A DNA stretch of 43,988 nt from Haliea sp. (GCA_041583655.1 JBFHFJ010000001.1:1-43988); one strand, 5' to 3'; numbered from the stretch's first letter, positions 12,991 to 43,972 are shown. The notes: generated by a model not told the origin, from the letters alone. Program-made: numbers and translations.

Positions 12991-13767
12991 GTGGGCGTGG
13001 CTCAGGTGCTAGACAAGACAGGAAGCAAAAATTCTGCCAGTGGTATAGGCAAGCGGCGCGCAGCGGCCAAAGTCGACCGCGCGCCCAACTACGAGAAGCG
13101 GCGCAAGGAGATTTCCGAGGCCGCCGCTCGCGTATTCAATCGGCGTGGCTTTCGCGGTACCACTATCAGCGCAGTGGCTGAAGAACTCAGCATTGACCGC
13201 GCATCTCTGTATTACTACATCTCGAGCAAGGAAGAATTGTTCGACGAACTGGTACGTGAGGTCTCCGAAGACAACGTTGCGATGGCGCGGAAGATCCAGT
13301 CCAGCCAGCAGTCGCCACCGGAGAAGCTGCGCGAACTCATTCTCGAGCTCATGCGCGCCTATGCCCGCAGCTATCCGCTCCTGTATATCTATATCCGCGA
13401 GAATCTCGGCGACGTGGCTGACCAGCGTTCAAACTGGGCCCGATACATGAAGCAGATCAACCGGGATTACGACAACGCGGTGATCTCCATCATTGAGGAG
13501 GGCTACCAGGATGGTTCTTTCCAGGATGTCGGTGATCCGAAAATTGTGGCCTATGGGATCATCGGGATGGTGGGCTGGACCAACCGCTGGTTCAAGCCCG
13601 ACCGTGGCAAGGCCGATGCCGATGAGGTCGCCCGTATCTACGCTGATATGGTAATCGGCGGAATGAGTTCGGCACCCGCGTCGATTAATGGTGGCCGAGC
13701 GCGGCCCCCCGTTGCGGTCGGCAAGCGCAAGAAAGCGCCCGCAAAAAATAGCGCACGCGGCAAGTAG
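12991..13767 (+). CDS. TetR/AcrR-family regulator (KstR2-like C-terminal domain); probable repressor of the island
   Basis: HTH region AAARVFNRRGFRGTTISAVAEELSIDRASLYYYISSKEELF; C-terminal GMVGWTNRWFKPD. GTG start, exact position uncertain. Confidence 0.92.
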   Translation: MGVAQVLDKTGSKNSASGIGKRRAAAKVDRAPNYEKRRKEISEAAARVFNRRGFRGTTISAVAEELSIDRASLYYYISSKEELFDELVREVSEDNVAMARKIQSSQQSPPEKLRELILELMRAYARSYPLLYIYIRENLGDVADQRSNWARYMKQINRDYDNAVISIIEEGYQDGSFQDVGDPKIVAYGIIGMVGWTNRWFKPDRGKADADEVARIYADMVIGGMSSAPASINGGRARPPVAVGKRKKAPAKNSARGK

Positions 13768-13794
13768 CCGCGGTCAAGCTGCTCCCGTCACCGC

Positions 13795-13834
13795 CAGCGG
13801 AGGTTTTTGACCTCCGCTGAACCCTTTCTTTTTT
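13795..13834 (+). terminator. Intrinsic terminator after tetR
   Basis: CAGCGGAGGT-ttttg-ACCTCCGCTG stem followed shortly by TTTCTTTTTT. Confidence 0.7.
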
Positions 13835-13885
13835 CGTATGTATGACGCTTGTGGTGCCGTCCCTGGTTTCCGCTTGCTCGCTCAG

Positions 13886-13901
13886 TCAACAAAAGCGTTG
13901 A
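13886..13901. promoter_or_regulatory. Palindromic operator copy 2, upstream of the BVMO-ECH-HADH operon
   Basis: TCAACAAAAGCGTTGA followed by CA (TTGACA). Confidence 0.75.
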
Positions 13902-13984
13902 CAAAATTTTCCGCCCTGTGCGATGCTTGGAGCATGAGGTGGTGCCGGCAGGTATTCCGGCCCGCAGCGCAGGAGGAAACGAGC

Positions 13985-16000
13985 ATGAATGACATAACAA
14001 ACCCGGCGCCTGAGCGCTGGCTCCAGGACGCCATTGCGAGAGCCAACATTCCGACCCTGGCCTGTCTGCTGGTGCAAATAACCGGCGAGCGCCGCTGGAT
14101 CGAGGGCAGGTTTGTTCCCTCCAGGCCCCGTGGATTGGATGACAATGACTCCGGCGGGCTTGCACCCGAGGTTCAGGCTGAGATTCGGCAAGCTGCGCTG
14201 GAAGGCATAACTAGACTGCTGGCCGGCGAACCGCTGGCCCTGCCGGAACCCGCCGATGACTTGCTGGTGGAAATGATGAGCGTCTCGCTCGGCGAGCGCA
14301 TTCCGGCTGAATACGCGCCGATGATTCGCCACGAGCTCAACCCCACGGGTTCAGCCGCACCAGCATCGACACCGGACGAGAGTGCAGCGGTACAAGCCTT
14401 TCCCCGGTTCGAGGGTATGAATCCCCCGGAGGGGTTTCGGGCACTGATTATTGGCGCCGGAATATCCGGTCTCTGCGCCGCGGTAAACCTGGCGGCCGCG
14501 GGTATCCCGTATACGATCATAGAGCGCAACTCGCGCCTCGGTGGCGTCTGGCATGAAAACAACTACCCCGGCGCCGCCTGCGACGTGCCCAGCCACCTGT
14601 ACTCTTTTTCTTTTGCGCCCTTCGACTGGTCGCGTTACTTCGCCGCCAGCGAGGAAATCCAGCGGTACCTGGAAGAGGTTGCCGATCTTTTCGATGTGCG
14701 CCGCCACATCCGCTTTAACACCGAAGTTATGGCCGCGAACTATGACGATGGCGATGCTGAGTGGGAGGCGGTGCTGCGCACGGCAGATGGCTCAGAGGAG
14801 ACCGCGCGCGCAGATATGGTGATCAGTGCGGTGGGCGCCTTCAACAAGCCCCGCTTTCCTGATGTGCCCGGCATCGACAGTTTCGCCGGCCCCAGCGTGC
14901 ACACCGCGCGCTGGCCGAGGGAGGGCGTGGAACTTGCGGGGCGCCGGGTCCTGGTGGTTGGCAATGGCGCAAGCGCCATGCAGGTTGTACCGGCCATCGC
15001 CGGCCAGGCCGCGTCTGTCACGGTGATCCAGCGTTCGACTCAATGGGCCGCTCCTTTTCCCAAATTCCAGGTGGAGGTGCCTGCTAGTCTGCAGCGCCTG
15101 ATGCGCGAGGTGCCGCTCTACCGCCTGTGGTATCGCCTGCGCCTGAGCTGGGCCTTTAATGACAAGCAGTATGCCGCGCTGCAGAAAGACCCCGAGTGGG
15201 ATAATGGCGGACTCTCCATCAATGCCCTCAACGATGTGCATCGCCGCGGGCTTACCGAATACATCAAGTCGGAACTGGGGGACGCCCAGGAATTGCTACC
15301 GCAGGTGTTGCCTGATTATCCGCCCTTCGGCAAGCGGATGCTGATGGACAATGGCTGGTTCCGCACGCTGGCCCGCGATGATGTTCATCTGGTCACGGGG
15401 GCGGTAACGGAGGTCTTGCCGGACCGGGTGCGGGTGAGCGATGGGTCCGAGCACGTAGCTGACGTGATTATCTGGGCGACAGGATTCGACGTTGTGAATT
15501 TCCTCGCGCCGATGGAGCTGCACGGAGTAGGTGGGCGCAGCCTGCACGATGACTGGGACGGCGATGACGCCCGCGCCTACCTTGGCACAGTGGTGCCGGG
15601 ATTCCCGAATTTTTTCTGCCTGTATGGTCCCAATACCCAGTTCGGTCACGGGGGCAGCCTGATCAGCATCGTGGAAAGGCAGATGCATTACGTCATGTCC
15701 CTGCTTGAGGCGATGTTTGCGCGCGGCCTGCATACCGTGGATGTGCGCCCCGAGGTGTACGAAAACTACGCCCGGGAAATCGACCGGCGCCACGAAAAAA
15801 TGATCTGGACGCATCAGGGGATGAGTACCTATTACCGCAATTCCAAGGGCCGGGTGGTGGTCTGCAACCCGTTCAGGATCGTCGAGTTCTGGGGTCTGAC
15901 GGACGAAGCCAATCTTGAGGATTACCGGGGCTGGACGGCGCCACACGAGGAGGTGGCCACCACTTCCGCAGGCCACCGGGTCGGGAGTGCGGGCCAATGA
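13985..16000 (+). CDS. Type I Baeyer-Villiger monooxygenase, 4-hydroxyacetophenone monooxygenase (HAPMO)-like, with long N-terminal extension
   Basis: GAGISG, GGVWHENNYPGAACDVP, fingerprint FAGPSVHTARWP, GNGASA, PPFGKRML.DNGW and WATGF; ATG 13985 follows GGAGG. Confidence 0.9.
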   Translation: MNDITNPAPERWLQDAIARANIPTLACLLVQITGERRWIEGRFVPSRPRGLDDNDSGGLAPEVQAEIRQAALEGITRLLAGEPLALPEPADDLLVEMMSVSLGERIPAEYAPMIRHELNPTGSAAPASTPDESAAVQAFPRFEGMNPPEGFRALIIGAGISGLCAAVNLAAAGIPYTIIERNSRLGGVWHENNYPGAACDVPSHLYSFSFAPFDWSRYFAASEEIQRYLEEVADLFDVRRHIRFNTEVMAANYDDGDAEWEAVLRTADGSEETARADMVISAVGAFNKPRFPDVPGIDSFAGPSVHTARWPREGVELAGRRVLVVGNGASAMQVVPAIAGQAASVTVIQRSTQWAAPFPKFQVEVPASLQRLMREVPLYRLWYRLRLSWAFNDKQYAALQKDPEWDNGGLSINALNDVHRRGLTEYIKSELGDAQELLPQVLPDYPPFGKRMLMDNGWFRTLARDDVHLVTGAVTEVLPDRVRVSDGSEHVADVIIWATGFDVVNFLAPMELHGVGGRSLHDDWDGDDARAYLGTVVPGFPNFFCLYGPNTQFGHGGSLISIVERQMHYVMSLLEAMFARGLHTVDVRPEVYENYAREIDRRHEKMIWTHQGMSTYYRNSKGRVVVCNPFRIVEFWGLTDEANLEDYRGWTAPHEEVATTSAGHRVGSAGQ

Positions 16001-16761
16001 CTGACGAGGTTCTTACCGAGCGGCGGGGCGCCACCCTGGTGGTGACCATCAATCGGCCCGGGCGCCGCAACGCGGTAACCCGCCTGGTATCGGAGGGCAT
16101 CGCCGCCGCCATGGACCAGCTGGACGGGGATGCGGCGCTGTCGGTAGGCATTATCACCGGCGCCGGTGGCAGTTTTTGCGCGGGCATGGATCTGCAAGCG
16201 TTTCTCGACGGTGAGCGCCCGGAAATCGAGGGCCGTGGTTTTGGCGGCATCACCGAGAGGCCGCCGCGCAAGCCGCTGATCGCCGCGGTGGAGGGCTTTG
16301 CCCTGGCCGGTGGTTGTGAGCTGGCACTGGCCTGTGACCTGATCGTGGCGGCGGACGATGCTTTTTTTGGCCTGCCCGAAGTTTCACGAGGCCTGGTGGC
16401 GGGTTCCGGCGGCCTGGTGAGACTGCCCCGCCGGATTCCCCCTGCCATCGCACTGGAATACGCGCTGACCGGCGCCCGGTTGCCGGCGCAGGAGGCCCAT
16501 CGCTGGGGGCTCGTGAACCGGATCACCGCGGCGGGCGGCGCGCTGGCCGGTGCGCTGGCGCTGGCCGATAGTATCTGCGCCAACGGCCCGCTCGCGGTTG
16601 CCATGACCAAGCGCATCGTTATGGAGTCACCGAACTGGGCGGCATCCGAGCTGTGGTCGCGGCAGGCGCCGCTGGTGGACGAGGTGCTTGCCTCCGAGGA
16701 TGCGCGTGAAGGTGCGCTCGCTTTCGCCGAGAAGCGCGCGCCGGTCTGGCGCGGTCGCTGA
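15997..16761 (+). CDS. Enoyl-CoA hydratase/crotonase family protein
   Basis: FCAGMDL, KPLIAAVEGFALAGGCELALACDL, FGLPEVSRG; ATGA overlap. Confidence 0.93.
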   Translation: MTDEVLTERRGATLVVTINRPGRRNAVTRLVSEGIAAAMDQLDGDAALSVGIITGAGGSFCAGMDLQAFLDGERPEIEGRGFGGITERPPRKPLIAAVEGFALAGGCELALACDLIVAADDAFFGLPEVSRGLVAGSGGLVRLPRRIPPAIALEYALTGARLPAQEAHRWGLVNRITAAGGALAGALALADSICANGPLAVAMTKRIVMESPNWAASELWSRQAPLVDEVLASEDAREGALAFAEKRAPVWRGR

Positions 16762-16807: not shown

Positions 16808-17650
16808 GTGGACAATGTGGCAGTAGTGGGTGGCGGTACCATGGGAACGGGAATCGTCTATACCGCGGCCCTGTCGGGCGCCTCGGTGTGGGCTGTTGAG
16901 CCGGACGAGGCGCGCGCCGCCGTGATGCTCAAGAGCATTGCGGACGCAGCGGCGGGTGGCGTCCGGCGCGGCAAACTGGACCCGCAGCAGGCGGATGCAC
17001 TGCAGGGCAGGATACGGCGGCTTGCGTCTGTGGCGGAGCTGCCCGAAGGGCTTGATCTGGTTGTTGAAACGGTTCCGGAGCGGCTTGAGCTGAAGCACCG
17101 GGTCCTGTCTGCGATCGCTGCAAAATTTCCTGATGTCATTGGCAGCAACACCAGTGCGCTGTCGATCGACAGGTTATCCGAGGCGCTGCCTTTTCCGGAG
17201 CGCTTCCTCGGCATGCATTTCTTCAATCCCGTTTGGTCGATCAAGCTGGTCGAGCTCGTGCGCGGCCGGGAGACCAGCGAGGGCACCCTGGCGTCGGCAC
17301 GGGCATTCGCAAAACAGCTGGGCAAGGAGTCGCTGACGGTCATTGATGTCCCCGGGTTCGCCACCAGTCGCCTGGACCTGATCGCGAGCCTTGAGGCGAT
17401 GCGGATGCTGGAGAGTGGGGTCGCCAGTGCGGAAGACATTGATCGCGCGGCTGTGCTCGCCTACCAGCATCCGGTCGGGCCGCTGCGGCTGAGCGACATT
17501 GTGGGCCTTGATGTGCGGCTGGATATTGCGCGCACTCTGGAGGAAGCGCACGGCCCCCGGTTCGCGCCGCCCCGGATACTCATAGACATGGTTGCCCGGG
17601 GCGAGTTGGGGCAGAAATCGGGGCAGGGATTTTTCGGCTGGCCGGTCTGA
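16808..17650 (+). CDS. 3-hydroxyacyl-CoA dehydrogenase
   Basis: GGGTMGTGI, VETVPERLELK, SNTSALSI, GMHFFNP, HPVGPL and GQKSGQGFF. Confidence 0.93.
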   Translation: MDNVAVVGGGTMGTGIVYTAALSGASVWAVEPDEARAAVMLKSIADAAAGGVRRGKLDPQQADALQGRIRRLASVAELPEGLDLVVETVPERLELKHRVLSAIAAKFPDVIGSNTSALSIDRLSEALPFPERFLGMHFFNPVWSIKLVELVRGRETSEGTLASARAFAKQLGKESLTVIDVPGFATSRLDLIASLEAMRMLESGVASAEDIDRAAVLAYQHPVGPLRLSDIVGLDVRLDIARTLEEAHGPRFAPPRILIDMVARGELGQKSGQGFFGWPV

Positions 17651-17670: not shown

Positions 17671-17686
17671 TCAACACAAGTGTTGA
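17671..17686. promoter_or_regulatory. Palindromic operator copy 3, upstream of the acyl-CoA dehydrogenase operon
   Basis: TCAACACAAGTGTTGA. Confidence 0.8.
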
Positions 17687-17750: not shown

Positions 17751-18932
17751 ATGATGAGCGCTGACAACATATTCTTTTCTCCGCTGGTGGATACGTCTGA
17801 TCACCACGCGGCTCTCCGTGAAAGCGTAGGCAAGCTCGTGGGCGGTTTTGGCCGCCGTTACTATCAAGAGGTGGTGGCCGCGGGTACTCCACCGACCGAG
17901 CTGTGGAGCGCTTTGGCAGAGGCGGGCTTTCTCGGCGCGCACATTTCCGATACCTACGGCGGCAGCGGTGGCGGCCTGGCGGACCTCAACGTGATCATCG
18001 AGGAAACGGCAGCCCAGGGGTGCCCGTTGCTGTTCCTGGTGATCCAGTCCATCTGTGCGCCGATACTGGAGCGCTACGCGTCCCAGGAAATCAAGGACAA
18101 GTGGCTTCCGGCGCTGGCCTCTGGGACTAAAAAAATGGCGTTCGCCATTACCGAACCCAACGCCGGCTCCAATACCCACAAGGTGACTACCACAGCCCGG
18201 TCGACCGCCAGCGGCTTTACGCTTTCCGGCACCAAGTACTGGACATCCGGTGTCGACGAAGCCGAGGCCATGCTGGTGGTTGCCCGCAACGGTGACGCCG
18301 TGCAGTCGGAGCGCTCCTCGCTGTCCCTGTTCATCGTTCCGACCGATGCGCCCGGCATTACGTTGAACAAGATACCGGCGGCGCTGATGACGCCGGAAAA
18401 CCAGTTCATGGTGTTCTTTGACGACGTGCAGTTGCCGCGGGAAGCCCTGGTGGGCGAACCGGGGGCGGGTCTCAAGCAGGTATTCGTGGGCCTCAATCCC
18501 GAGCGTGTATCGGCGGCGGCGATCAACAACGGCATCGCTCGCTACGCGCTGAGCAAGGGCTCCCAGTACGCGAGAGAGCGCTCGGTGTGGAAGACGACCA
18601 TAGGCGCTCACCAGGGGGTCTCACACCCGCTGGCTGAATCCTACATTAACGTCCAGGCGGCACGCTTGCTGACCGCGCGAGCGGCACAGCTGTTCGACGC
18701 CGGTGAAGATGCCGCCGAGGCAGCCAACATGGCCAAGTTCTGCGCTGCCGAGGCTTCGCTCAAGGCGCTGGACCAGGCCATGCAGGTCCATGGGGGCAAT
18801 GGGCTATCCTATGAATACGGCCTTGCCGACCTGTGGTTTATCGCACGCCTGCACAAGACCGCGCCGGTCAGCCGGGAAATGATCCTGAACTATGTCGCCC
18901 AGCACAGTCTCGGTCTGGAAAAAAGCTACTGA
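17751..18932 (+). CDS. Acyl-CoA dehydrogenase
   Basis: FAITEPNAGSN, GTKYWTS, GLNPER, IGAHQGVSHPLA, AMQVHGGNG. Confidence 0.93.
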   Translation: MMSADNIFFSPLVDTSDHHAALRESVGKLVGGFGRRYYQEVVAAGTPPTELWSALAEAGFLGAHISDTYGGSGGGLADLNVIIEETAAQGCPLLFLVIQSICAPILERYASQEIKDKWLPALASGTKKMAFAITEPNAGSNTHKVTTTARSTASGFTLSGTKYWTSGVDEAEAMLVVARNGDAVQSERSSLSLFIVPTDAPGITLNKIPAALMTPENQFMVFFDDVQLPREALVGEPGAGLKQVFVGLNPERVSAAAINNGIARYALSKGSQYARERSVWKTTIGAHQGVSHPLAESYINVQAARLLTARAAQLFDAGEDAAEAANMAKFCAAEASLKALDQAMQVHGGNGLSYEYGLADLWFIARLHKTAPVSREMILNYVAQHSLGLEKSY

Positions 18933-18962: not shown

Positions 18963-20483
18963 ATGAACGTGAATTTCGCCGACATACTGCGCGACCACGC
19001 CCGGCAGCGCGCAGGCGCGCCGTGTCTCAGTTTTGCCGATGACACCCTGAACTATGGACAGTTGCACCAGCGCAGCAGCCAGCTGGCCAACGCGTTGTTG
19101 CAGCGCGGACTGGTAGCCGGGGACAGGGTCGCAGTCATCGCGCGCAATGCGCCGGTGTTCTACGAACTCGCCTTTGCCTGCGCCAAAGCCGGCATGATCA
19201 TGCTGCCGGTAAACTGGCGCCTGTCTGCGCGGGAACTGGGCGAAATCCTTGAAGATGCTTCCCCCGGCCTGGTGCTTGCGGACGAGGAGTTCGCCGGCAA
19301 TCTGCCCAATACCGCCCCGGTGACCATACTGGACAAGCACTTCGGTGACTGGCTCACCCGGGCCTCGGACACCGATCCCGGCGCGCCCATTGAGGGCGAT
19401 GAACCGATGCTGTTGCTGTATACCTCTGGCACGACGGGTCGTGCAAAAGGCGTCATGATCTCGCACCGGAACATGAGCTTCACCAGCCGCATGGCGCGGG
19501 AGGTCTGGCGCTTCCGGCCTGCCAGCGTCAACCTTGTTGCCGGGCCCCTGTTTCACATAGGCGGCATTGGCTACGGCATGATGTCGCTAACCCAGGGCGG
19601 ACACACGGTGCTGCTGCAGCAGCCCGCCCCTAATCCGGTGCTGCATGCGATTGTCCGGTATGGCGTCACGCACGCCTTTTTTGTACCCGCGGTTATCCAG
19701 AGTCTGGTTGAGGCCGAGGGCGTAGACGAAATGGATCTTTCCACGCTGGAGCTCATCGCCTACGGCGCTTCCCCGATCAGCGAAACGCTGCTGCTGCGTG
19801 CAATGACTGTGTTCGGGTGCGGATTCAGCCATGCCTACGGTCTGACCGAAACCTCTGGCACGGTGATAAGCCTGCCTCCGGAGGCGCATGACCCTGGCGG
19901 CGTACATGCGGAGCGATTGCGTTCCTGTGGGCTCCCCGTGCCCTGGGCGGAGGTTGACCTTTTTGACCCGCAGACGGATCTGCCAGTGGGCGAGGGCGAG
20001 GTAGGAGAGATACGCGTCCGCTCCGGAATGAACATGGTTGGTTACTGGAACAAGCCGCAGGAGACACGCGCTACCTTCGCCGAAGGCGGCTGGCTGCGAA
20101 CGGGAGATGCGGCGTGGCGGGACGCCGATGGATACTTTTACATCCACGACCGTTTCAAGGACATGATCGTCTCCGGTGGTGAAAATATTTACCCGACCGA
20201 AGTGGAGAATGTGCTCTACCAGCATCCGGATGTCGCGGAGGCTGCGGTCATCGGGGTTCCCCACGAGCGCTGGGGAGAGACCCCGAAAGCGATCGTGGTG
20301 CTGCGTACCGGCAGTCTGGTGGTGGAGCAGGACCTGATTGGCTTCCTGCGCCAGCGACTGGCGCACTACAAGTGTCCCACATCGGTAGAGTTTGTACAGT
20401 CGATGCCGCGCAGTGCCTCCGGCAAGATACTGAAGCGGGAACTGCGCCTGATGGCCTGGCCCGAGAAGAGGAGGGCTCAATGA
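18963..20483 (+). CDS. Acyl-CoA synthetase (long-chain fatty acid-CoA ligase family)
   Basis: YTSGTTGRAKG, YGLTE, GWLRTGD, DRFKDMIVSGGENIYP, SGKILK. Confidence 0.93.
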   Translation: MNVNFADILRDHARQRAGAPCLSFADDTLNYGQLHQRSSQLANALLQRGLVAGDRVAVIARNAPVFYELAFACAKAGMIMLPVNWRLSARELGEILEDASPGLVLADEEFAGNLPNTAPVTILDKHFGDWLTRASDTDPGAPIEGDEPMLLLYTSGTTGRAKGVMISHRNMSFTSRMAREVWRFRPASVNLVAGPLFHIGGIGYGMMSLTQGGHTVLLQQPAPNPVLHAIVRYGVTHAFFVPAVIQSLVEAEGVDEMDLSTLELIAYGASPISETLLLRAMTVFGCGFSHAYGLTETSGTVISLPPEAHDPGGVHAERLRSCGLPVPWAEVDLFDPQTDLPVGEGEVGEIRVRSGMNMVGYWNKPQETRATFAEGGWLRTGDAAWRDADGYFYIHDRFKDMIVSGGENIYPTEVENVLYQHPDVAEAAVIGVPHERWGETPKAIVVLRTGSLVVEQDLIGFLRQRLAHYKCPTSVEFVQSMPRSASGKILKRELRLMAWPEKRRAQ

Positions 20484-22714: not shown

Positions 22715-22769
22715 TCAATACATGTGTTGACAAAATAGAATGGCGGCGTAATATCAACTGTAGTGTTGA
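22715..22769 (+). promoter_or_regulatory. Sigma70-type promoter with tandem operators (copies 4 and 5) upstream of TonB receptor 1
   Basis: TCAATACATGTGTTGA (22715-22730) overlaps TTGACA; 16-bp spacer; TAATAT; then TCAACTGTAGTGTTGA (22754-22769). Confidence 0.8.
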
Positions 22770-31701: not shown

Positions 31702-31756
31702 TCAACACATGTATTGACAAAACGGAGAGGGAATGTATTATCAACTATAGTGTTGA
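31702..31756 (+). promoter_or_regulatory. Sigma70-type promoter with tandem operators (copies 6 and 7) upstream of TonB receptor 2
   Basis: TCAACACATGTATTGA (31702-31717) overlaps TTGACA; 16-bp spacer; TATTAT; then TCAACTATAGTGTTGA (31741-31756). Confidence 0.8.
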
Positions 31757-37166: not shown

Positions 37167-37204
37167 TCAACAACAACGTTGCATCAAGTCAACATATGTG
37201 TTGA
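37167..37204. promoter_or_regulatory. Operator copy 8 plus a degenerate copy in the divergent BVMO/MaoC promoter
   Basis: TCAACATATGTGTTGA (37189-37204, identical to copy 1) and TCAACAACAACGTTGC (37167-37182). Confidence 0.78.
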
Positions 37205-37291
37205 AATATTTGAGCCTGGGGTTTGGCCTGAGCCATGATTGCAGCTCACTGCGACAATCGCGGGGCGGCAACAGCGGAGGAATATGACAGC

Positions 37292-37735
37292 ATGAACGAA
37301 CGCAGCAGCGATTTCCCTTCCATGCGGATAACCGCAGACACGCCAATTGGCTATGAACTACAGCCGGTAAAAAAGCGGGCCGTGATCCAGTTGATGGGCT
37401 CCCGGCTCTGGGGCCGATTCAATCCCAACCACTGGGACCCCGATTACGCCTCCTCGACCGGTCTCGATGCCCCGATCCAGACCGGCGAGATGTCCTCGGC
37501 CTACATCGCCGAGATGTGCGTCAATCACTTCGGCGCCGACCTGTTTCGCAATGCGCGTGTGGTCTGCAAATACGTCGCCTCGACGCTGGCCAATGAAGTC
37601 ATTACCACCCACGGCGTGGTCAGGGAGAAGACGGCGGAGGGCGATGGTTTTCGTTTCAGGGTAGAGGTCTGGTGTGACAACGAGGCAGGCGAGAAAAAGA
37701 CCGTGGGCTGGGTCGAAGCCAGCGTCGGCGCCTGA
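37292..37735 (+). CDS. MaoC-like hot-dog fold (R-specific hydratase-like) protein
   Basis: FNPNHWDPDYA...GLDAPIQTG variant of the D.NP.H.D hydratase motif; ATG 37292 follows GGAGG. Confidence 0.75.
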   Translation: MNERSSDFPSMRITADTPIGYELQPVKKRAVIQLMGSRLWGRFNPNHWDPDYASSTGLDAPIQTGEMSSAYIAEMCVNHFGADLFRNARVVCKYVASTLANEVITTHGVVREKTAEGDGFRFRVEVWCDNEAGEKKTVGWVEASVGA

Positions 37736-37789: not shown

Positions 37790-38326
37790 GTGAAAGAATC
37801 GAAGGCAATATTAGACAGCTTGCGTCCCCAGAGTGACGTCCAGGTTCAGCAGACGAAGGCATTTATCAAGGAACTTGAGCAGAAGTGCCAGACCTACTGG
37901 GATATGGTAGAGGTCGGTGATGAGCTGTCACGGGAGCTCTATATCACGCCGGAGCTGGTCATCCTCTATGCCGACGGTGTTGAGGATTTCAATCCCTGGT
38001 ACGAGGCGTGGCGAATGAATTCCTGGCGCATTCCTGGCGATTCGCCGTTTGGCGGCGCAATCGTGCCGCCCCTGCTGGTGTCCCATTTTGTTCTCTCGGT
38101 TCAGTTCGATCACACCCGACCCTTCGCGATTGGCTCGATTCACACCTATCACGACTCGGAAATTCTGGCGCCTATTCCGGTGGGGGCGACGGTTCGCATT
38201 ACGACGCGTGCCGTGGACAAATATGAAAAGCGCGGCCGTCGTTATGTGCGTCACGATGCCGAGGTGGTAGACACGGAGGACGGCACGGTCTACTTCCGCG
38301 AAACCCGCGACATCCTGTCCCTGTAG
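37790..38326 (+). CDS. MaoC-like hot-dog fold protein (partner subunit)
   Basis: YADGVEDFNPWY, SPFGGAIVPP, PIPVGATV...DKYEKRGRRYV. Confidence 0.72.
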   Translation: MKESKAILDSLRPQSDVQVQQTKAFIKELEQKCQTYWDMVEVGDELSRELYITPELVILYADGVEDFNPWYEAWRMNSWRIPGDSPFGGAIVPPLLVSHFVLSVQFDHTRPFAIGSIHTYHDSEILAPIPVGATVRITTRAVDKYEKRGRRYVRHDAEVVDTEDGTVYFRETRDILSL

Positions 38327-38338: not shown

Positions 38339-38779
38339 ATGCTTGATCAAACCAGCTTTGTTGTCGACGGCTTGATGGTAGAAGGTCCCGACGGGACCCG
38401 TTTGTGCGCTTCTTTCTGTGACGGCTGCGGCACGGTGTATTTCCCTCGACCAGTCAGTTGTCGCAACCCCGAATGCTCCTCAAAGGCGCTTCAGGACAGG
38501 CTGCTGGAGGGCCGGGGGACGCTGTACAGCTTTACGATCCAGCGCTACCAGCCGCCTGCATTGTTCCGGATCGACAACTGGGAGCCCTATGCGCTGGGCC
38601 TGGTGGAGCTGCCAGAGGGGCTTCAGGTGATGGGGATGTTGTCCGGGTTTGACCTCGACAACATCCGCATTGGCGAGCCGGTCAAGCTGGTATCCGAATG
38701 CCTGTTCACGGATCCGGAGCGAGGCCGGGTGATGACCTACAAGTTTGCTCCGGAAATGTCGGGGGGGAGCCCACAGTGA
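38339..38779 (+). CDS. DUF35 (zinc ribbon + OB-fold) protein, BbsA/ChsH2 C-terminal-like
   Basis: CDGCG..YFP...CRNPEC, GRGTLYSFT, PYALGLVELPEG, IGEPV. Confidence 0.88.
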   Translation: MLDQTSFVVDGLMVEGPDGTRLCASFCDGCGTVYFPRPVSCRNPECSSKALQDRLLEGRGTLYSFTIQRYQPPALFRIDNWEPYALGLVELPEGLQVMGMLSGFDLDNIRIGEPVKLVSECLFTDPERGRVMTYKFAPEMSGGSPQ

Positions 38780-39966
38780 GACCAGTATATGTCCTTGGTG
38801 CCGGCGCCCACCCGTGGGGTAAATGGCCAAACAAGCCGCAGGTTGCCATGGCCGTGGAGGCCCTGCAGGCCGCGTTCGCGGATGCCGGCCTGGGGTGGCA
38901 GCACATTGAAGGCCTGGTGGCCGCCAGCTCCCGCTTTGAGGGTGGCATGGGCTGGGGGCTGCATGCCAATGAAATTGTGCAGACGGTCTCGGAGCAGGGA
39001 ATTCCCTGCATTAACGTGGGCGGCGCCTGTGCCGCGGGTGTCATCGCCTTCCAGACGGCCTGGGCGATGATCGCCAGTGGCCAGCACGAAGCGGTCGCGG
39101 TAGTGGGTGCCGAGCGAATGCCCAAAGGGTTTATTCCGCGCCCGCCCGGTAGCCAGGATGATATCAGCGACTCCGACTACCTGCGCTGGGTCACCATGGG
39201 TGCTACCAATCCGGCCTATTGGGCGCTGGAGGCGCACCGCCGTTTTCATGACTTTGGCACCACGCATGAGACGCTGGCACTGGCTTCAGTCCTGATGCGC
39301 AACAATGCATCGGGCAATCCCTATGCCCGCTACCGTGAGGCGTTGACGGTGGCCGAAGTACTGGCATCGCCCATGGTGTCGGATCCGCTGCACCTGCTGC
39401 AGATCTGCCCGGTAAGCGATGGCGCTGCAGCCCTGGTGCTGGGCAGTGAGCGATTTCTTCAGCGCGTCGCCAGGGATCCTGTGCAGGTTGCAGGCTGCGC
39501 CGTTGGTTCGGGCCAGTTTGGCGACCCGGCCCGGCGTATTCCCACCATCGCCAACAACCTGCTGCCGGGTGTGGCGCATACCAGCGAAGTGGTCGGTGCG
39601 GTCGGTCGTGCGCTGGAGATGGCGGGAATGGGCCCGAAGGATGTCGATATTCTGGAGATGGCCGACAATTCGGTCTGGCATCTGCTGGCGTGGCCTGAGT
39701 TGTTCGGATTTGTCGAGCCGGGCCAGAGCGACTGGATGCTGGAGAATGGCCGCTATGCCCGGGATGGAGACCTGGCGCTCAATCCCGGAGGCGGCTTCCT
39801 GTCCTTTGGTGAAGCGACCACGGCGCAGGCGGTGCTGCAGGTCTGTGAACTGACCTGGCAACTGCGCGGGGAGGCCGAGGGGCGGCAGGTACCGGGGGCG
39901 AAGGTGGGCATGTCTGCAGTCCTGGGGCTGGGTGCCAACGGTGGTTCGGTCATACTCAAACGCTAG
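38776..39966 (+). CDS. SCP2/Ltp-type thiolase-superfamily protein with atypical catalytic motifs
   Basis: GTG 38776 overlaps the DUF35 stop; GAGAHPWGK, NVGGACAAG, CPVSDGAAA, NPGGGFLSFGEA, QLRGEAEGRQVPGA. Confidence 0.87.
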   Translation: MRPVYVLGAGAHPWGKWPNKPQVAMAVEALQAAFADAGLGWQHIEGLVAASSRFEGGMGWGLHANEIVQTVSEQGIPCINVGGACAAGVIAFQTAWAMIASGQHEAVAVVGAERMPKGFIPRPPGSQDDISDSDYLRWVTMGATNPAYWALEAHRRFHDFGTTHETLALASVLMRNNASGNPYARYREALTVAEVLASPMVSDPLHLLQICPVSDGAAALVLGSERFLQRVARDPVQVAGCAVGSGQFGDPARRIPTIANNLLPGVAHTSEVVGAVGRALEMAGMGPKDVDILEMADNSVWHLLAWPELFGFVEPGQSDWMLENGRYARDGDLALNPGGGFLSFGEATTAQAVLQVCELTWQLRGEAEGRQVPGAKVGMSAVLGLGANGGSVILKR

Positions 39967-39998: not shown

Positions 39999-41726
39999 AT
40001 GATGAGCAAGCAGGAATCCGTCGGGCAGCGCCAGCAGGCACTGGAGAGCCGCCATCCGGTGTGGCGGCCCCGTACCCTGGACCAGCTGCTGGCTGATGTC
40101 GCCCGGGAGTGGCCCGAGCGCGACCTCGTAATCACTGACGCCAGAACCTACAGTTACCGCGACATGGATGAGTGGGCTACGCGCCTGGCTCACGGCCTGC
40201 GCCAGGCGGGTGTTCGCCGCGGTGACCATGTCGCCCTGGTGATGGCCAACTATCCCGAGTTTGTTGCCCTCAAGTTTGCCATCTCCCGAGCCGGGGCCAC
40301 CGCTGTCCCCATCAATTTTCTCAACCGTCGCGACGAGCTGGCCTATGTGCTTGAGCAATCGGATGCCCGTTGCCTGGTGACCATGGACAGCTTCCGCAAC
40401 CTGGACTACCTCGACATGCTTGATCAGCTGGCGCCGGGCTGGGAGCGTGCGGGAGGCGGGGCCCGGTTTCCCGAACTTGAGCGGGTGTTTGTTTTTCCCT
40501 GTTCCGGCGAACCACTGCGCCCGGGCGCAAGGCCGCTAACCGAGCTCGATAGTGGCAGCGCGGCACCGGCGTCGGGTGCGCGGGGGGACTCGCAGGGCGT
40601 TGCCGATCTTATCTATACCTCGGGCACGACCGGCGGCCCCAAGGGCGTCATGTTGAGCCACGACATGTTGCTGCGCACGGCCTACGGCAGCGCCTACGGC
40701 AGGGCCTTCCAGGGCGGTCGGCGGATTCTGTTCGCGATGCCGATGTACCATGTCTATGGTTATGTCGAGGGTCTGCTGGCCGCACTGATGGTGGGCGGAG
40801 CGATCATTCCCCAGCTGCAGTTTGATCCCGCCGAGACTTTGCGCGCGGTTGCCGAGCACCAGGCCAACGATATTCTCCTGATCCCGACCATGACCCTGGC
40901 TCTGCTGGAACAACTGGAAAAGCAGCCCCGCGCCCTGGCGTCGCTCACCGCCATGCTGTCTTCGGGCGGGAAATCGCCCCCGGGTATCTGGGGTCGAATC
41001 GCTGCCGCTTTTGGCCCGCTTGAAGTGACCACCGGCTACGGCATGACCGAGGCCACAGCATCCTCTACCGTCACCCGCCCCGACGATCCCCCCGAGCGGT
41101 TGTACACAAGCAACGGTCGTCTGCGGGATGTCGGTGCGGCAGGGGGTCCGGATAACGGCGGCAGGCTGGTTGTCTACCGGGTCGTGGACTCCGCCTCCGG
41201 TGCTGAATTACCCCGCGGTTCCCTGGGGGAATTGCGCATGAAAGGTATCGGGGTTACCCGGGGCTATTACAACAAGCCCGCCGAGACTGCCGCGGCCTTC
41301 GACGAGGAGGGCTGGTTTCGTACCGGAGACCTCGGCATCCTGGACGGGGAAGACTACATCACGCTCATGGGGCGCACCAAGGAGAGCTACCGCTGTGGCG
41401 GCGAACTGGTGTTGCCGCTGGAGGTAGAACAGGTCCTCGCGATGCACCCCGCGGTCGGCGAGGTGCATGTGGTGGCCGTGCCGGATACGAAAATGGGGGA
41501 GGTGGGCGTTGCCTGTGTGGTGGCGCCCCAGCAGCCGGCGACGACGGCGGATGAGCTGATTGCGTACTGCATGCCCCGGCTGGCCCGCTTCAAGGTGCCG
41601 AAACACGTCATATTCATCCGCCCGGAGCAGGTGCCGGTCACCGCCACCGGGCGCCCCCGCAAGTTCCTCTTGGCGGAGCTCGCACAGGAGTTGTTGGCGG
41701 AACAATGTGCGAGGAATCGACGATGA
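39999..41726 (+). CDS. Acyl-CoA synthetase / AMP-binding enzyme
   Basis: YTSGTTGGPKG, GYGMTE, GWFRTGDLG, GRTKESYRCGGE, RFKVPK. Confidence 0.92.
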   Translation: MMSKQESVGQRQQALESRHPVWRPRTLDQLLADVAREWPERDLVITDARTYSYRDMDEWATRLAHGLRQAGVRRGDHVALVMANYPEFVALKFAISRAGATAVPINFLNRRDELAYVLEQSDARCLVTMDSFRNLDYLDMLDQLAPGWERAGGGARFPELERVFVFPCSGEPLRPGARPLTELDSGSAAPASGARGDSQGVADLIYTSGTTGGPKGVMLSHDMLLRTAYGSAYGRAFQGGRRILFAMPMYHVYGYVEGLLAALMVGGAIIPQLQFDPAETLRAVAEHQANDILLIPTMTLALLEQLEKQPRALASLTAMLSSGGKSPPGIWGRIAAAFGPLEVTTGYGMTEATASSTVTRPDDPPERLYTSNGRLRDVGAAGGPDNGGRLVVYRVVDSASGAELPRGSLGELRMKGIGVTRGYYNKPAETAAAFDEEGWFRTGDLGILDGEDYITLMGRTKESYRCGGELVLPLEVEQVLAMHPAVGEVHVVAVPDTKMGEVGVACVVAPQQPATTADELIAYCMPRLARFKVPKHVIFIRPEQVPVTATGRPRKFLLAELAQELLAEQCARNRR

Positions 41727-42472
41727 GCAAGGTGGCAGTGGTAACGGGCAGTGCCCGCGGTATCGGCGCGGCTATCGCGCTGCGTTTGGCCCGCGACGGC
41801 CTTGATGTGGCGATCCTGGACCTGGACGCCACCCGCTGCGCGGACACCGTGGCAGCGGTCCAGGCGCTAGGTCGCCGGGCAATGGCGGTGACCGTGGACG
41901 TGACCGACGAGGCTTCCGTGGCAGCGGCCGCCGCTCGCGTCGCGGAAGAACTGGGGCCACCTCTGGTGCTGGTGAACAATGCCGGCATCATGAGCTCGCG
42001 CATGGCTCATCGCATGAGTCTGGGCGAGTGGGAGCTGGTGCTGGATGTGAACCTGCGCGGCGCCTTCCTGATGAGCCGGGAACTGCTGCCGTTTATGCGC
42101 GAAGCGAAATGGGGCCGGATCATCAATCTTTCCAGTACAGGCGCCCTGGGCCTGGTTGGCGGTGCCAACTACGCTGCGGCCAAGGCGGGTGTACAGGGCC
42201 TGACCAAGACCCTGGCCCTGGAGCTGGGGCCGTTCAACGTCACTGCCAATGCGATTGCACCGGGCTTTGTGGTCACCGATATGACACGCAGTATGGCGCG
42301 GGAGGTCGGCGTCACAGTCGAGGAGATGGAGGCGGACATGGTGAAGGACATCGCCGTTGGTCGTGCCGGCACCCCTGACGATATTGCCCATGCGGTGGCG
42401 TTCTTTGCCGACGAGCGCTCTTCCTTTGTCTCCGGCCAGGTGCTCTACGTGGCGGGCGGCCCGAAGACCTGA
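41723..42472 (+). CDS. FabG-like SDR (3-oxoacyl reductase family)
   Basis: TGSARGIG, NNAG, NYAAAK, NAIAPG; ATG 41723 overlaps the ligase stop. Confidence 0.92.
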   Translation: MSKVAVVTGSARGIGAAIALRLARDGLDVAILDLDATRCADTVAAVQALGRRAMAVTVDVTDEASVAAAAARVAEELGPPLVLVNNAGIMSSRMAHRMSLGEWELVLDVNLRGAFLMSRELLPFMREAKWGRIINLSSTGALGLVGGANYAAAKAGVQGLTKTLALELGPFNVTANAIAPGFVVTDMTRSMAREVGVTVEEMEADMVKDIAVGRAGTPDDIAHAVAFFADERSSFVSGQVLYVAGGPKT

Positions 42473-42489
42473 CCCGCCCCGGTCTTCCC

Positions 42490-43263
42490 TTACTGGATGA
42501 TCGCTACCGCGCGCGTCCAGCCCGCAGAGGCTCCACGAATCTTGCAGGGGAAACAGGAGACCTCGAAGCCGGACGGCGGCAGGGCTTCCAGGTTGTGCAG
42601 CTTTTCCAGGTGGCAGTAGCCGATGTCGCGTCCGGCCTTGTGGCCCTCCCAGATCAGGCCCGCATCTCCGGTTGCCTCGTAACGTTGCCCGGTGTGGACG
42701 AAGGGCGCATCCCAGCTCCAGCCGTCGGTGCCGGTCACCCGTACACCGCGCTCCAGCAAATACATGGTGGCCTCGTAGCCTATGCCGCAACCGGCTGACA
42801 CGTAATCGTCACTGCCGTAGCGGGCCCCGGCGGCCGTGTTGACGAGGACAATCTCCAGCGGTTTCAGGGTGTGGCCAATCCGCGCCAGCTCCTTCTCAAC
42901 GTCCGCAGCGGTCACCACGTAGCCGTCCTCGAAATGGCGAAAGTCCAGCTTGACCCCGGGCTGGAAGCACCAGTCCAGCGGCACCTCGTCGATGGTAATG
43001 GCGCGTTCGCCGCCATTCATGGTGGAGGCGAAGTGCCAGGGTGCGTCGAGGTGCGTGCCGTTGTGGGTAATCAGCTCGACCTTCTCGATGGCCCAGCCCT
43101 CGGCGTCAGGCAGGTCTTTAGCCTGCAGGCCGGGGAAAAAACCGAGGATGTCCGGAAGGGATGCCTGGTGGTCTATATAGTGGATTTTTGGCTGGTAACC
43201 GGGCGGGTCCGAGATGACATCGTTTTCAAAGTAGATGGAAAGATCGATTATCTGCCTGCTCAT
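42490..43263 (-). CDS. Cyclase-family metallohydrolase (kynurenine formamidase/isatin hydrolase-like)
   Basis: HNGTHLDAPWHF metal motif, GTDGWSWD, HLEKL, RAVA; ATG 43263 follows GAGGA. Confidence 0.9.
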   Translation of the reverse strand: MSRQIIDLSIYFENDVISDPPGYQPKIHYIDHQASLPDILGFFPGLQAKDLPDAEGWAIEKVELITHNGTHLDAPWHFASTMNGGERAITIDEVPLDWCFQPGVKLDFRHFEDGYVVTAADVEKELARIGHTLKPLEIVLVNTAAGARYGSDDYVSAGCGIGYEATMYLLERGVRVTGTDGWSWDAPFVHTGQRYEATGDAGLIWEGHKAGRDIGYCHLEKLHNLEALPPSGFEVSCFPCKIRGASAGWTRAVAIIQ

Positions 43264-43322
43264 GGGAGGTTCCTCGCTGTAGAGCGCGGTGGAATGGCGG
43301 CTCTGCAGCGTATGGTAGCAAT

Positions 43323-43338
43323 TCAACAGATATGTTGA
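43323..43338. promoter_or_regulatory. Palindromic operator copy 9, upstream of the cyclase-family gene
   Basis: TCAACAGATATGTTGA. Confidence 0.78.
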
Positions 43339-43354
43339 CAATCTCTGTTTGGGC

Positions 43355-43972
43355 TTATTGCCGGCAGACAATACTCTCGAACATGCCCCTTGCCTCCTCC
43401 AGCTTGTCGAAGATGGGATAGCTGCTGTCCATGGCCCAGCTTACCGTGAGCACGTTCAGGGTGCCGACCACCATGGAAGCGAGGATTTCGGGGCTGAAGG
43501 TTGCGCGGGTATCGCCCTGCTCCTGGCCCGCGGTGAACAGGCGGGCAAAGCTGTCCAGGGCGGAATTGTTGATTTCGCGCTGGGTCTCCGGGTCGTTCGC
43601 AAAGACGGTGGGCGCGGCGAGGATCAGCTGCCGGTCGATGTCCTCGTAGCCGGCAAAGGTGGTCTCGATAAAGTCGATCATGGCTTCCAGGCGGCCCCGG
43701 GTACTGGCGTGATTCCTGATCAGTGCTTCCAGCATCGGCCCGGACTGGCTGTACAGTCTGGATACCCCCAGGCCCCCCAGCAGAGCGTGCTTGTTGGGGA
43801 AGTAGCTGTAGAAAGTGCGTCGCGCAACATCGGCTTCTGTGCAGATCTGCTCGATGCTGGTCTCGTCAATGCCCTGGCGCCGGAACAGTTCATAGGCGGC
43901 GTCCTCAATACGCGCCCTGGTCTCAAGCTTGCGCTTCTCCCTGCGTCCCTGTGGTGCCTCGGCTAAACCCAT
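43355..43972 (-). CDS. TetR/AcrR-family regulator
   Basis: RREKRKLETRARIEDAAYELFRRQGIDETSIEQICTEADVARRTFYSYFPNK. Confidence 0.93.
   Translation of the reverse strand: MGLAEAPQGRREKRKLETRARIEDAAYELFRRQGIDETSIEQICTEADVARRTFYSYFPNKHALLGGLGVSRLYSQSGPMLEALIRNHASTRGRLEAMIDFIETTFAGYEDIDRQLILAAPTVFANDPETQREINNSALDSFARLFTAGQEQGDTRATFSPEILASMVVGTLNVLTVSWAMDSSYPIFDKLEEARGMFESIVCRQ

What the first reader, a model, noticed from the sequence alone, without database searches (positions are those of the whole stretch)
12991..43972. Self-contained uptake-to-acetyl-CoA catabolic island for an unidentified hydrophobic or cyclic compound
Seen: two TonB receptors, MFS, two exported haem-propeller proteins, three SDRs, two BVMOs of different subtypes, two CoA ligases, ACAD/ECH/HADH/thiolase, a MaoC-DUF35-thiolase-like module, SnoaL, GST and cyclase. 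Inference: outer-membrane import, periplasmic oxidation, alcohol-to-ketone oxidation, Baeyer-Villiger oxygen insertion, then CoA-dependent chain shortening. No ring-cleavage dioxygenase, KstD or Rieske oxygenase is present, so it does not match canonical aromatic or steroid-ring clusters. Terpenoid, steroid side-chain or aryl-alkyl ketone substrates are guesses.
Basis: partly seen in the sequence, partly recalled or inferred. Interest (0 to 1): 0.75.

Follow-up and report, generated by a model that had tools for sequence, protein, structure and literature searches.

The report
Co-regulated breakdown pathway for unknown lipid
Twenty-four neighbouring genes in a marine bacterium share ten copies of one palindromic DNA site and recur, reshuffled, in other bacteria, so they likely form one switch-controlled pathway that would import and break down a still unidentified fat-soluble molecule (best guess terpenoid-like), with two unstudied exported proteins predicted to be haem enzymes.

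Summary
The gene list is correct. The unit is 24 genes, TetR1 (12991) to the cyclase-family hydrolase; the last TetR belongs to the next locus. New evidence shows one regulon: the palindrome TCAAC-N6-GTTGA occurs 7 times exactly (0.02 expected) plus 3 one-mismatch copies, all between genes, before every predicted transcription unit. The site and 12-24 of the 24 genes recur, in shuffled order, in eight other gammaproteobacterial genomes and on a Sphingopyxis plasmid. It is patchy: 8 of 251 family genomes. It is not fully self-contained: no esterase, aldehyde dehydrogenase or ETF lies inside. The thiolase-like protein lacks the steroid-aldolase and SCP2-thiolase motifs, so it is no steroid side-chain module. 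The two exported proteins are Ig-like + CxxCH + seven-bladed propeller paralogues with an invariant His/Tyr/Arg set and no full-length solved relative; the scan noted this family before on other DNA (e1-3230626). No described pathway matched in 10 paper searches. Substrate remains unknown; a methyl-branched terpenoid-type lipid is my best guess (0.45).

The parts
12932..12947 (.). Operator TCAAC-N6-GTTGA upstream of TetR1 (likely autoregulation)
   Evidence: conserved in G012, G001
12991..13767 (+). TetR1 repressor (TetR_N + TetR_C_24); likely binder of the operator
   Evidence: homologues with the same recognition helix accompany the site in other loci
13886..13901 (.). Operator upstream of BVMO1-ECH-HADH
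13985..16000 (+). BVMO1, type I Baeyer-Villiger monooxygenase with about 150 aa N-terminal extension (HAPMO-type, label recalled)
15997..16761 (+). Enoyl-CoA hydratase (PRK08252 over cut-off)
16808..17650 (+). 3-hydroxyacyl-CoA dehydrogenase
17671..17686 (.). Operator upstream of ACAD-ligase1-SnoaL-MFS
17751..18932 (+). Acyl-CoA dehydrogenase, 58% to a protein annotated fadE12
18963..20483 (+). Acyl-CoA ligase 1 (PRK06187 over cut-off)
20480..21325 (+). Tandem SnoaL/NTF2-like protein; marker gene of the pathway
21378..22652 (+). MFS transporter
22715..22769 (.). Operator pair (22715, one mismatch; 22754) over the -35 and -10 boxes of a sigma70-like promoter
22862..25213 (+). TonB-dependent receptor 1
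25213..25905 (+). Glutathione S-transferase (best family PRK10357, under cut-off)
25940..26707 (+). SDR1 (PRK06114, 356.5 vs cut-off 360)
26698..28596 (+). Prop1: signal peptide (read by eye), Ig-like domain, CxxCH + invariant Met, seven-bladed Vgb-like propeller
28603..29343 (+). SDR2; adjacent to Prop1 in most related loci
29420..31558 (+). Prop2: lipoprotein-type signal (read by eye; start uncertain), same three-domain build, distant paralogue of Prop1
31702..31756 (.). Operator pair (31702, one mismatch; 31741) over a sigma70-like promoter
31889..34129 (+). TonB-dependent receptor 2
34224..35408 (+). Classical thiolase (TIGR01930 over cut-off)
35465..37087 (-). BVMO2; closest solved relative phenylacetone monooxygenase, Arg aligned to its FGTKR Arg
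37167..37204 (.). Operator pair (37167, one mismatch; 37189) between divergent BVMO2 and MaoC1
37235..37735 (+). MaoC1 hot-dog protein (likely start 37292); Arg in place of the hydratase Asp
37790..38326 (+). MaoC2, likely hot-dog partner
38339..38779 (+). DUF35 (zinc ribbon + OB fold)
38776..39966 (+). Thiolase-like protein (PRK06059 over cut-off); Cys kept, ADN(S/T) and GEA in place of the His motifs
39999..41726 (+). Acyl-CoA ligase 2
41723..42472 (+). SDR3, FabG-like
42490..43263 (-). Cyclase-family (PF04199) metal hydrolase; distant relative of isatin hydrolase
43323..43338 (.). Operator upstream of the cyclase; right edge of the regulon
   Evidence: conserved in G001, G012

Best explanation
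The 24 genes share one palindromic site and likely form a single TetR1-repressed regulon that would import one kind of scarce, lipophilic, likely non-aromatic and methyl-branched (terpenoid-type) molecule and degrade it through CoA esters. Shown: gene content, the operator before all eight predicted transcription units, conservation of genes and operator. Inferred steps: the two TonB receptors bring the compound or its precursor into the periplasm; Prop1 and Prop2 oxidise it there and pass electrons on through a His/Met c-type haem; the MFS carries the product in; ligase 1 with ACAD, ECH, HADH and thiolase runs ordinary beta-oxidation; ligase 2 with the MaoC pair (or a crotonase that stands in its place in some genomes), SDR3 and the Cys-bearing thiolase-like/DUF35 pair runs a second cycle for a branched or hindered acyl-CoA (hydrate, oxidise, cleave through an acyl-enzyme); the BVMOs remove ketone blocks by making esters or lactones that the cyclase-family hydrolase or an outside esterase opens; SDR1/2, SnoaL and GST adjust alcohols, rings or double-bond geometry; an acyl-CoA intermediate lifts TetR1. 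My split: one regulon 0.9; terpenoid-type substrate about 0.5.
For: Operator: 7 exact copies in the window, 0.02 expected, 0 of 100 shuffles reach 7; 3 more with one mismatch; 10 of 10 in non-coding DNA that is 5.9% of the span; only 3 exact copies in the other 3.23 Mb. In other genomes 56 sites of 20 bits or more in 26 cluster stretches (549 kb) against 5 in 25 comparison stretches (655 kb), 4 of these 5 in a Rhodococcus stretch that carries a TetR1 homologue; a second Rhodococcus plasmid with such a homologue has 8 sites of 18 bits or more. Gene set: 24 of 24 in G012 and G001, 20 in G638, 18 on the Sphingopyxis sp. FD7 plasmid, 16 each in G504, G590, G343, 14 in G148, 12 in G612, 0 in three control stretches, with changed order. 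Ester logic: an HSL-family esterase lies next to BVMO2 or inside the cluster in G638, G612, FD7, L034, L038, L043. Non-aromatic: no ring-cleavage dioxygenase among the 24 genes; no LigB or intradiol family match in G000 while controls rang. Terpenoid hints: ACAD 58% to a 'fadE12'; the same regulator/operator pair stands before two 'acyclic terpene utilization AtuA family' operons and a BVMO2 relative (43%) on a Rhodococcus ruber plasmid; FD7 has a luciferase-like monooxygenase where BVMO1 stands; side-chain shortening to a methyl ketone followed by a proposed BVMO step is described for abscisic acid (PMC9599779, passages); a monooxygenase / epoxide hydrolase / diol dehydrogenase / BVMO route is described for limonene (PMC4097962, passages).
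Against: No substrate evidence is direct. The closest solved relatives point to aromatic side chains as readily: phenylacetone monooxygenase for BVMO2, benzoylsuccinyl-CoA thiolase for the thiolase-like protein. The AtuA-bearing Rhodococcus cluster shares only 27-43% identity, has no SnoaL, GST or MaoC orthologue, and G000 gave no AtuA hit. No carboxylase or P450 lies in the unit. The SnoaL profile found no limonene epoxide hydrolase among solved structures. G000 is 82% complete, so missing dioxygenases are weak evidence. FD7's plasmid lacks Prop1/Prop2 (chromosome not searched), G504's stretch lacks ligase 2, L054 lacks DUF35 and the thiolase-like gene in the stretch held, so parts are dispensable or elsewhere. 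5 of 26 cluster stretches have no site at 20 bits. G000, G001 and G012 are kin. MaoC1 lacks the usual catalytic Asp.
Confidence: 0.45

Rival explanations
1. Same regulon, but the substrate is an aryl-alkanoate or aryl-alkyl ketone/alcohol; the side chain is stripped and the ring handed to another pathway or excreted.
For: BVMO2 closest to phenylacetone monooxygenase (E 2.8e-180); BVMO1 has the N-terminal extension of 4-hydroxyacetophenone monooxygenases (recalled; extension seen); best solved match of the thiolase-like protein is benzoylsuccinyl-CoA thiolase; ligase + hydratase + SDR + cleavage enzyme without ACAD resembles hydroxycinnamate beta-oxidation (recalled); on the FD7 plasmid the cluster abuts protocatechuate 4,5-cleavage genes.
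Against: The lig stretch has no operator-like site (L090); no lig gene hit in G000; no LigB or intradiol family in G000 (82% complete); no ligB hit in any other cluster stretch held.
Confidence: 0.22
2. Same regulon, but the substrate holds a heterocycle or amide (furan fatty acid, lactam, fatty amide, alkaloid): oxygenation opens it, GST isomerises a cis-enedione, and amide or C-C hydrolases finish.
For: Accessory genes beside operator-like sites include a carbon-nitrogen hydrolase (L035, L094), a fumarylacetoacetate-hydrolase-family protein (G148), an amidohydrolase (FD7) and a beta-keto acid cleavage enzyme (FD7); the cyclase is related to isatin hydrolase; 52% relatives of Prop1 lie near dimethylformamidase-like genes. 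GST with FAH is the classic isomerase/hydrolase pair (recalled).
Against: Each of these genes occurs in only one to three loci; none but the cyclase and GST is in the window; no amine oxidase, aminotransferase or molybdo-hydroxylase among the 24 genes.
Confidence: 0.18
3. A steroid or bile-acid side-chain module (ChsH/Ltp2- or Shy/Sal-like) with steroid BVMOs.
For: MaoC pair + DUF35 + thiolase-like order; TetR_C_24 family (includes KstR2, recalled); steroid monooxygenase among BVMO relatives; KshA-like Rieske next door.
Against: The aldolase Tyr motif (YDHF/YDCY, PMC12329534) is replaced by ADN(S/T) in 5 of 5 close orthologues, and the Cys that Sal lacks is kept; EchA19 and steroid-24-oyl-CoA synthetase models score under cut-off; the Rieske operon has no operator and is absent at the G001 site.
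Confidence: 0.08
4. A chance pile-up of unrelated catabolic operons in a genome rich in such paralogues.
For: High paralogue background; order varies; a recent exchange replaced the middle 18 kb.
Against: One operator before every unit, and the same orthologues and operator together across families and two classes.
Confidence: 0.03

Closest known systems
Steroid side-chain hydratase/aldolase modules (ChsH1-ChsH2/Ltp2; Shy/Sal)
   Same: MaoC-type genes + DUF35 + thiolase-like gene beside ligase and ACAD
   Different: No catalytic Tyr motif, nucleophile Cys kept (vs PMC12329534 passages); stand-alone DUF35; no ring-degradation genes in the unit
Benzoylsuccinyl-CoA thiolase BbsAB and SCP2-type thiolases
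   Same: Best solved matches; Cys nucleophile; DUF35 partner
   Different: HD(A/C)F and GHP histidines replaced by ADNS and GEA
Phenylacetone and steroid monooxygenases (type I BVMO)
   Same: Fingerprints and active-site Arg
   Different: Substrate untested; embedded in a CoA regulon
Limonene pathway of Rhodococcus erythropolis DCL14; abscisic acid side-chain route of Rhodococcus sp. P1Y
   Same: Logic of oxygenase, small hydrolase, SDR, BVMO, then CoA steps (PMC4097962, PMC9599779, passages)
   Different: No sequence-level orthology tested or shown; two TonB receptors, two haem-propeller proteins, GST and a double beta-oxidation set are extra
Virginiamycin B lyase Vgb (seven-bladed propeller)
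   Same: Best fold match of both propellers (Z 25.7, rmsd 2.4, 288 aligned for Prop2; E 8e-17 for Prop1)
   Different: 11-19% identity; added signal peptide, Ig-like and CxxCH domains; Vgb models score 49 vs cut-off 600
Sphingopyxis sp. FD7 plasmid pSFD01 clusters (uncharacterised)
   Same: 18 of 24 genes at 38-81% identity and the operator
   Different: Split in three transposon-flanked pieces; no Prop1/Prop2 on the plasmid; adds PQQ/haem ADH, ALDH, LLM monooxygenase, BKACE, esterases; only the isolation source (industrial cooling water) found in print (PMC7273453)

Membership tests
Type I Baeyer-Villiger monooxygenase | FxGxxxHxxxW(P/D) and [AG]GxWxxxx[FY]P[GM]xxxD fingerprints (motifs recalled) | tested here: met
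   Both motifs in both proteins
Type I Baeyer-Villiger monooxygenase | Active-site Arg | tested here: met
   BVMO2 FGTMR aligns to FGTKR of phenylacetone monooxygenase; BVMO1 has FGKR
4-hydroxyacetophenone monooxygenase subtype (BVMO1) | Orthology to HAPMO and activity on aryl ketones | not tested
   Only the about 150 aa extension was seen; no HAPMO sequence was compared
Ltp2/Sal steroid aldolases | Catalytic Tyr in YDHF or YDCY | tested here: not met
   ADN(S/T) in 5 of 5 close orthologues; motif from PMC12329534
Ltp2/Sal steroid aldolases | Loss of the thiolase nucleophile Cys | tested here: not met
   Cys85 invariant in 6 of 6 rows
SCP2-type / BbsB thiolases | Nucleophile Cys | tested here: met
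   Aligned
SCP2-type / BbsB thiolases | HD(C/A)F and GHP histidines | tested here: not met
   ADNS and GEA
MaoC (R)-enoyl-CoA hydratase | Asp-x4-His dyad in one chain (recalled) | tested here: not met
   MaoC1 RFNPNH, MaoC2 D(F/Y)NPWY in the query and all 8 full-length orthologues of each; a dyad shared between chains is not excluded
c-type cytochrome (Prop1, Prop2) | Conserved CxxCH in an exported protein, with maturation genes in the host | tested here: met
   One CxxCH in 108 of 108 and 120 of 120 rows, invariant Met; CcmF-like motif on C12; signals read by eye
c-type cytochrome (Prop1, Prop2) | Covalent haem and Met ligation | not testable with these tools
   No model coordinates or spectra available
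Vgb lyase | Seven-bladed Vgb-type propeller | tested here: met
   Pfam Vgb_lyase 79.9 over cut-off 50 for Prop1 only
Vgb lyase | Whole-protein family score; catalytic His and Mg ligands in register | tested here: inconclusive
   NCBIfam 49 and 39.5 vs 600; repeat register ambiguous
PQQ- or copper-dependent propeller dehydrogenases | Cofactor site and cofactor supply genes | tested here: inconclusive
   PCuAC follows the 52% relatives of Prop1 in 4 loci (3 over cut-off) but was not seen in the closer clusters; pqqC search rang nowhere, controls included
Aromatic ring-cleavage pathway | Ring-hydroxylating and ring-cleaving oxygenases in the unit | tested here: not met
   None among 43 ORFs scanned
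Lignin beta-etherase system (LigD/E/F/G) | GST of the LigE/LigF/LigG clades | not tested
   No Lig GST was compared; best family is PRK10357 under cut-off
Limonene epoxide pathway | SnoaL protein is a limonene epoxide hydrolase; epoxidising monooxygenase present | tested here: inconclusive
   Profile search gave only weak ester-cyclase hits; LLM only in FD7; its limonene-monooxygenase label is recalled and was not confirmed
Integrative genomic island | Integrase and tRNA target | tested here: not met
   No tRNA in window, no integrase family among ORFs scanned; the G001 copy starts about 1 kb after tRNA-Leu
Integrative genomic island | Patchy presence, variable site, deviating composition | tested here: met
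   4 of 15 genus genomes, 8 of 251 family genomes; different flanks in G001; GC3 median 0.74 vs 0.80, 24 of 24 genes under the genome median

The most novel reading that the evidence does not exclude
Prop1 and Prop2 are a new class of periplasmic redox enzyme: a c-type haem relay fused to a seven-bladed propeller whose invariant His-His-Tyr-Arg-Tyr-Arg set binds copper or an anionic organic cofactor, here opening an undescribed route by which aquatic bacteria consume a widespread algal or plant terpenoid. The Prop2 family has thousands of members and no characterised one was found, and this regulon gives it a testable substrate link.
Probability: 0.3. Interest if true: 0.78.

Novelty: new variant of a known kind. 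Interest (0 to 1): 0.52.

Why it matters
Gene lists like this are common in marine gammaproteobacteria and usually untestable. Here one operator defines the pathway's members and limits, names its regulator, and gives a ready assay: a TetR1/operator reporter can be screened against compound libraries without culturing the host, and cultured carriers exist (Luminiphilus syltensis record L026; Sphingopyxis sp. FD7). Finding the inducer would assign functions at once to a very large unstudied haem-propeller family, a thiolase-like subfamily with a re-wired active site, a non-canonical hot-dog pair and a tandem SnoaL protein, and would name an organic compound worth a dedicated, horizontally moving pathway in sea and fresh water.

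Tried and rejected
PQQ/haem alcohol dehydrogenase as a stand-in for Prop1: rejected, both lie in one cluster in G638. The crotonase ECH2 as a genome-wide replacement of the MaoC/DUF35/thiolase-like genes in FD7: corrected, the plasmid has both versions in separate copies; they stay mutually exclusive per stretch (MaoC pair in G012, G001, G504, G590, G638, L038, L054; ECH2 in G148, G343, L036). BVMO1 and cyclase as an obligate pair: weak; 8 of 8 genomes with a BVMO1 orthologue have a cyclase at 78% or more and 5 of 6 without have none, but in G148 and G343 the cyclase lies elsewhere without operator. Further regulon members in G000: the next-best sites fall inside gyrB and dnaA ORFs. Prop1-SDR2 fusion (P0125, L034): seen once, exported plus cytoplasmic, not used. 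No solved full-length relative: Prop2 0 hits by sequence; fold searches covered only the propeller, the N-terminal domains were not searched alone. No RNA holder listed. PQQ supply inconclusive. Terminator scan at chance level. Novosphingobium resinovorum and Burkholderia gladioli hits share single genes only. Actinobacterial ACAD/ligase neighbours are different clusters with Rieske or P450 genes. Paper searches found no description of this gene set, this operator or this protein family; the library lacks most subscription papers and no supplements were read, so locus-level mentions could be missed. The paper on the Rhodococcus jostii plasmid limonene genes was not available, so that link is recalled only. 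No complex prediction or representative-library search was run.
Full report
Setting. The window is the whole of contig C1 of a 3.27 Mb, 373-contig, 82% complete genome. A same-genus genome carries a 99% identical Prop2, and the records that one search lists for the closest copies are titled Haliea sp., Halieaceae bacterium and Luminiphilus syltensis, so the host is a marine gammaproteobacterium of that family. Left of 12.9 kb lie unrelated genes (sugar-type MFS, di-haem peroxidase family, beta-helix protein, sorbosone dehydrogenase family, HemN, subtilase).

Observation. The list alone is weak evidence, because the genome has many paralogues of these families, while Prop1, Prop2, SnoaL, GST, both MaoC-like genes and the cyclase are single-copy. 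I therefore asked whether the genes are one unit.

One operator. Listing the intergenic DNA showed a repeated palindrome. TCAAC-N6-GTTGA occurs 7 times exactly in the window against 0.02 expected, and no shuffle of 100 reached 7. Three more copies differ by one base; the remaining 3.23 Mb hold 3 exact copies. All 10 copies lie between genes, in 5.9% of the span by my gene calls. They precede TetR1, BVMO1, ACAD, both TonB receptors, the divergent BVMO2/MaoC1 pair and the cyclase, that is every predicted transcription unit. At both receptor promoters a pair of sites 39 bases apart overlaps the -35 and -10 boxes, as a repressor would. A weight matrix built from 9 window sites (so window scores are circular) found 56 sites of 20 bits or more in 26 cluster-bearing stretches of other genomes (549 kb; 5 stretches had none; four stretches are close kin) and 5 in 25 comparison stretches (655 kb). 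Four of those 5 lie in a Rhodococcus plasmid stretch that turned out to encode a TetR1 homologue with the same recognition helix, with sites on both sides of that gene; a second Rhodococcus plasmid with such a homologue has 8 sites. TetR2 has a different helix, lies beyond the last site and is missing from the G001 copy, so TetR1 is the likely regulator and the unit ends at the cyclase. Binding is inferred, not shown. Across the genus the bare pattern also occurs 1-12 times per genome, scattered, in genomes without the cluster; the clustering, not the pattern alone, is the signal.

One gene set. G012 and G001 carry all 24 genes in the same order; G012 has the same flanks, G001 has the block after secG and tRNA-Leu. 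In stretches held from more distant genomes the set recurs in changed order at about 45-85% identity: 20 genes in G638, 16 in G504, G590 (the same DNA as L026, counted once) and G343, 14 in G148, 12 in G612, 18 on the Sphingopyxis sp. FD7 plasmid, none in three control stretches (thresholds 38-52% by family, stretches incomplete). Metagenome loci show further orders. The pathway is rare: the SnoaL marker is in 8 of 251 family genomes, Prop1 in 6 of 401 order genomes, own genome included. GC3 is mildly low. Between G000 and G012 the part from about 20.5 to 38.5 kb is 95-99% identical, the flanks 75-89%, which reads as a recent exchange between two species.

Not self-contained. No esterase, aldehyde dehydrogenase or ETF is among the 24 genes. 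Related clusters add an HSL-family esterase (G638, G612, FD7, L034, L038, L043), a third TonB receptor with a PQQ/haem alcohol dehydrogenase (G638, G612, FD7), and single cases of ALDH, luciferase-like monooxygenase, beta-keto acid cleavage enzyme, FAA-hydrolase and carbon-nitrogen hydrolase. G000 has a PQQ dehydrogenase, ALDHs and esterases elsewhere, without operator.

The enzymes. Both monooxygenases carry the type I BVMO fingerprints; BVMO2 is closest to phenylacetone monooxygenase, BVMO1 has an extra N-terminal part of about 150 residues. The thiolase-like protein keeps the nucleophile Cys but has ADN(S/T) and GEA where SCP2-type and BbsB thiolases have histidines; it also lacks the Tyr motif that drives retro-aldol cleavage in Ltp2 and Sal, and Sal lacks that Cys (PMC12329534, passages seen). 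It thus fits neither family; a Cys acyl-enzyme is my inference. SDR3 stays beside ligase 2 or this module in nearly every locus, which favours hydrate-oxidise-cleave over retro-aldol. The MaoC pair is well conserved but lacks the usual Asp-His dyad in one chain; in G148, G343, L036 and one FD7 copy a crotonase stands in its place. The tandem SnoaL protein has only unnamed relatives.

The propeller proteins. Prop1 and Prop2 are distant paralogues (probability 99.4). Confident models (pLDDT 90.4 and 89.5; alignments of the query with 107 of 117 and 119 of 120 listed hits) show a beta-sandwich, a helical domain with CxxCH, and a propeller whose best match is virginiamycin B lyase; no solved protein matches the whole. 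CxxCH, one Met, and a set of His, His, Tyr, Arg, Tyr, Arg at matching repeat positions are invariant in both alignments (these are close relatives, 50% and up but for one row). His/Met haem suggests electron transfer, hence a dehydrogenase with a second cofactor in the propeller (inference). Relatives of Prop1 at 52% are followed by a copper chaperone gene in 4 loci; it was not seen in the closer clusters, and one chaperone copy exists elsewhere in 5 of 5 genomes. A redox-neutral lyase or lactonase, as in Vgb, is not excluded. Prop2 has at least 7837 relatives among 7999 scored, Prop1 117 among 7995.

Substrate. Nothing here identifies it. For a terpenoid-type lipid: two beta-oxidation sets plus BVMO and esterase are what a methyl-branched chain needs (own knowledge); the ACAD is 58% identical to a protein annotated fadE12; the regulator/operator pair precedes AtuA-family operons on a Rhodococcus plasmid; no LigB or intradiol dioxygenase was found in G000; published routes for abscisic acid and limonene use the same logic (PMC9599779 and PMC4097962, passages seen). 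Against: nearest solved enzymes act on aromatic side chains; FD7's cluster abuts protocatechuate cleavage genes (no operator there); the Rhodococcus enzymes are not orthologues; amide-type hydrolases recur as accessories. I give terpenoid 0.45, aryl side chain 0.22, heterocycle or amide 0.18, steroid 0.08, chance 0.03.

Literature. Ten searches gave no description of the cluster, operator or propeller family. PMC7273453 (passages) gives only FD7's source; PMC8371827 (passages) notes in general terms that bloom gammaproteobacteria are rich in oxygenases of uncertain substrate; PMC3983516 (passages) did not hold the limonene point. No supplements were read. Labels HAPMO, KstR2, limonene monooxygenase and the MaoC dyad are recalled.

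Verdict. A real, conserved, mobile catabolic regulon of a familiar kind, with an apparently undescribed gene set, a newly defined operator and several unstudied enzymes. Interest 0.52.

Noticed in passing
window 20500-38500 vs G012:C70: About 18 kb in the middle of the cluster is 95-99% identical between two species whose flanks are 75-89% identical: a likely recent homologous exchange.
   Followed up: partly
window 43355-43972; G000 C216; L012:12212-16122: TetR2 faces an amidohydrolase / KshA-like Rieske / SDR / acetoacetate-decarboxylase-like operon, a separate catabolic unit without the operator.
   Followed up: partly
window 3109-6098: Di-haem cytochrome c peroxidase (MbnH/MauG-like, under cut-offs) followed by a parallel beta-helix protein with a C-terminal CxxCH; conserved in G012, not part of the regulon.
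   Followed up: no
window 8463-9884: hemN is present here but gave no hit between the subtilase and sorbosone-dehydrogenase genes of G012.
   Followed up: no
L056, L059, L060, L063: A second Prop1 subfamily (52%) is followed by a PCuAC copper chaperone gene and lies near Rieske oxygenase or dimethylformamidase-like genes.
   Followed up: partly
L034:10001-12622 (P0125): Prop1 and SDR2 are in one open frame in this contig; single case.
   Followed up: partly
L088, L089, L098 (Sphingopyxis sp. FD7 plasmid): Three diverged, transposon-flanked pieces of the pathway with four TetR1 homologues on one plasmid.
   Followed up: yes
L128, L130 (Rhodococcus plasmids): TetR1 homologues and 7-8 operator-like sites mark two other uncharacterised CoA/BVMO clusters, one with two AtuA-family operons.
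   Followed up: partly
G638 C29 and C9: One genome holds two diverged copies of the cluster.
   Followed up: partly
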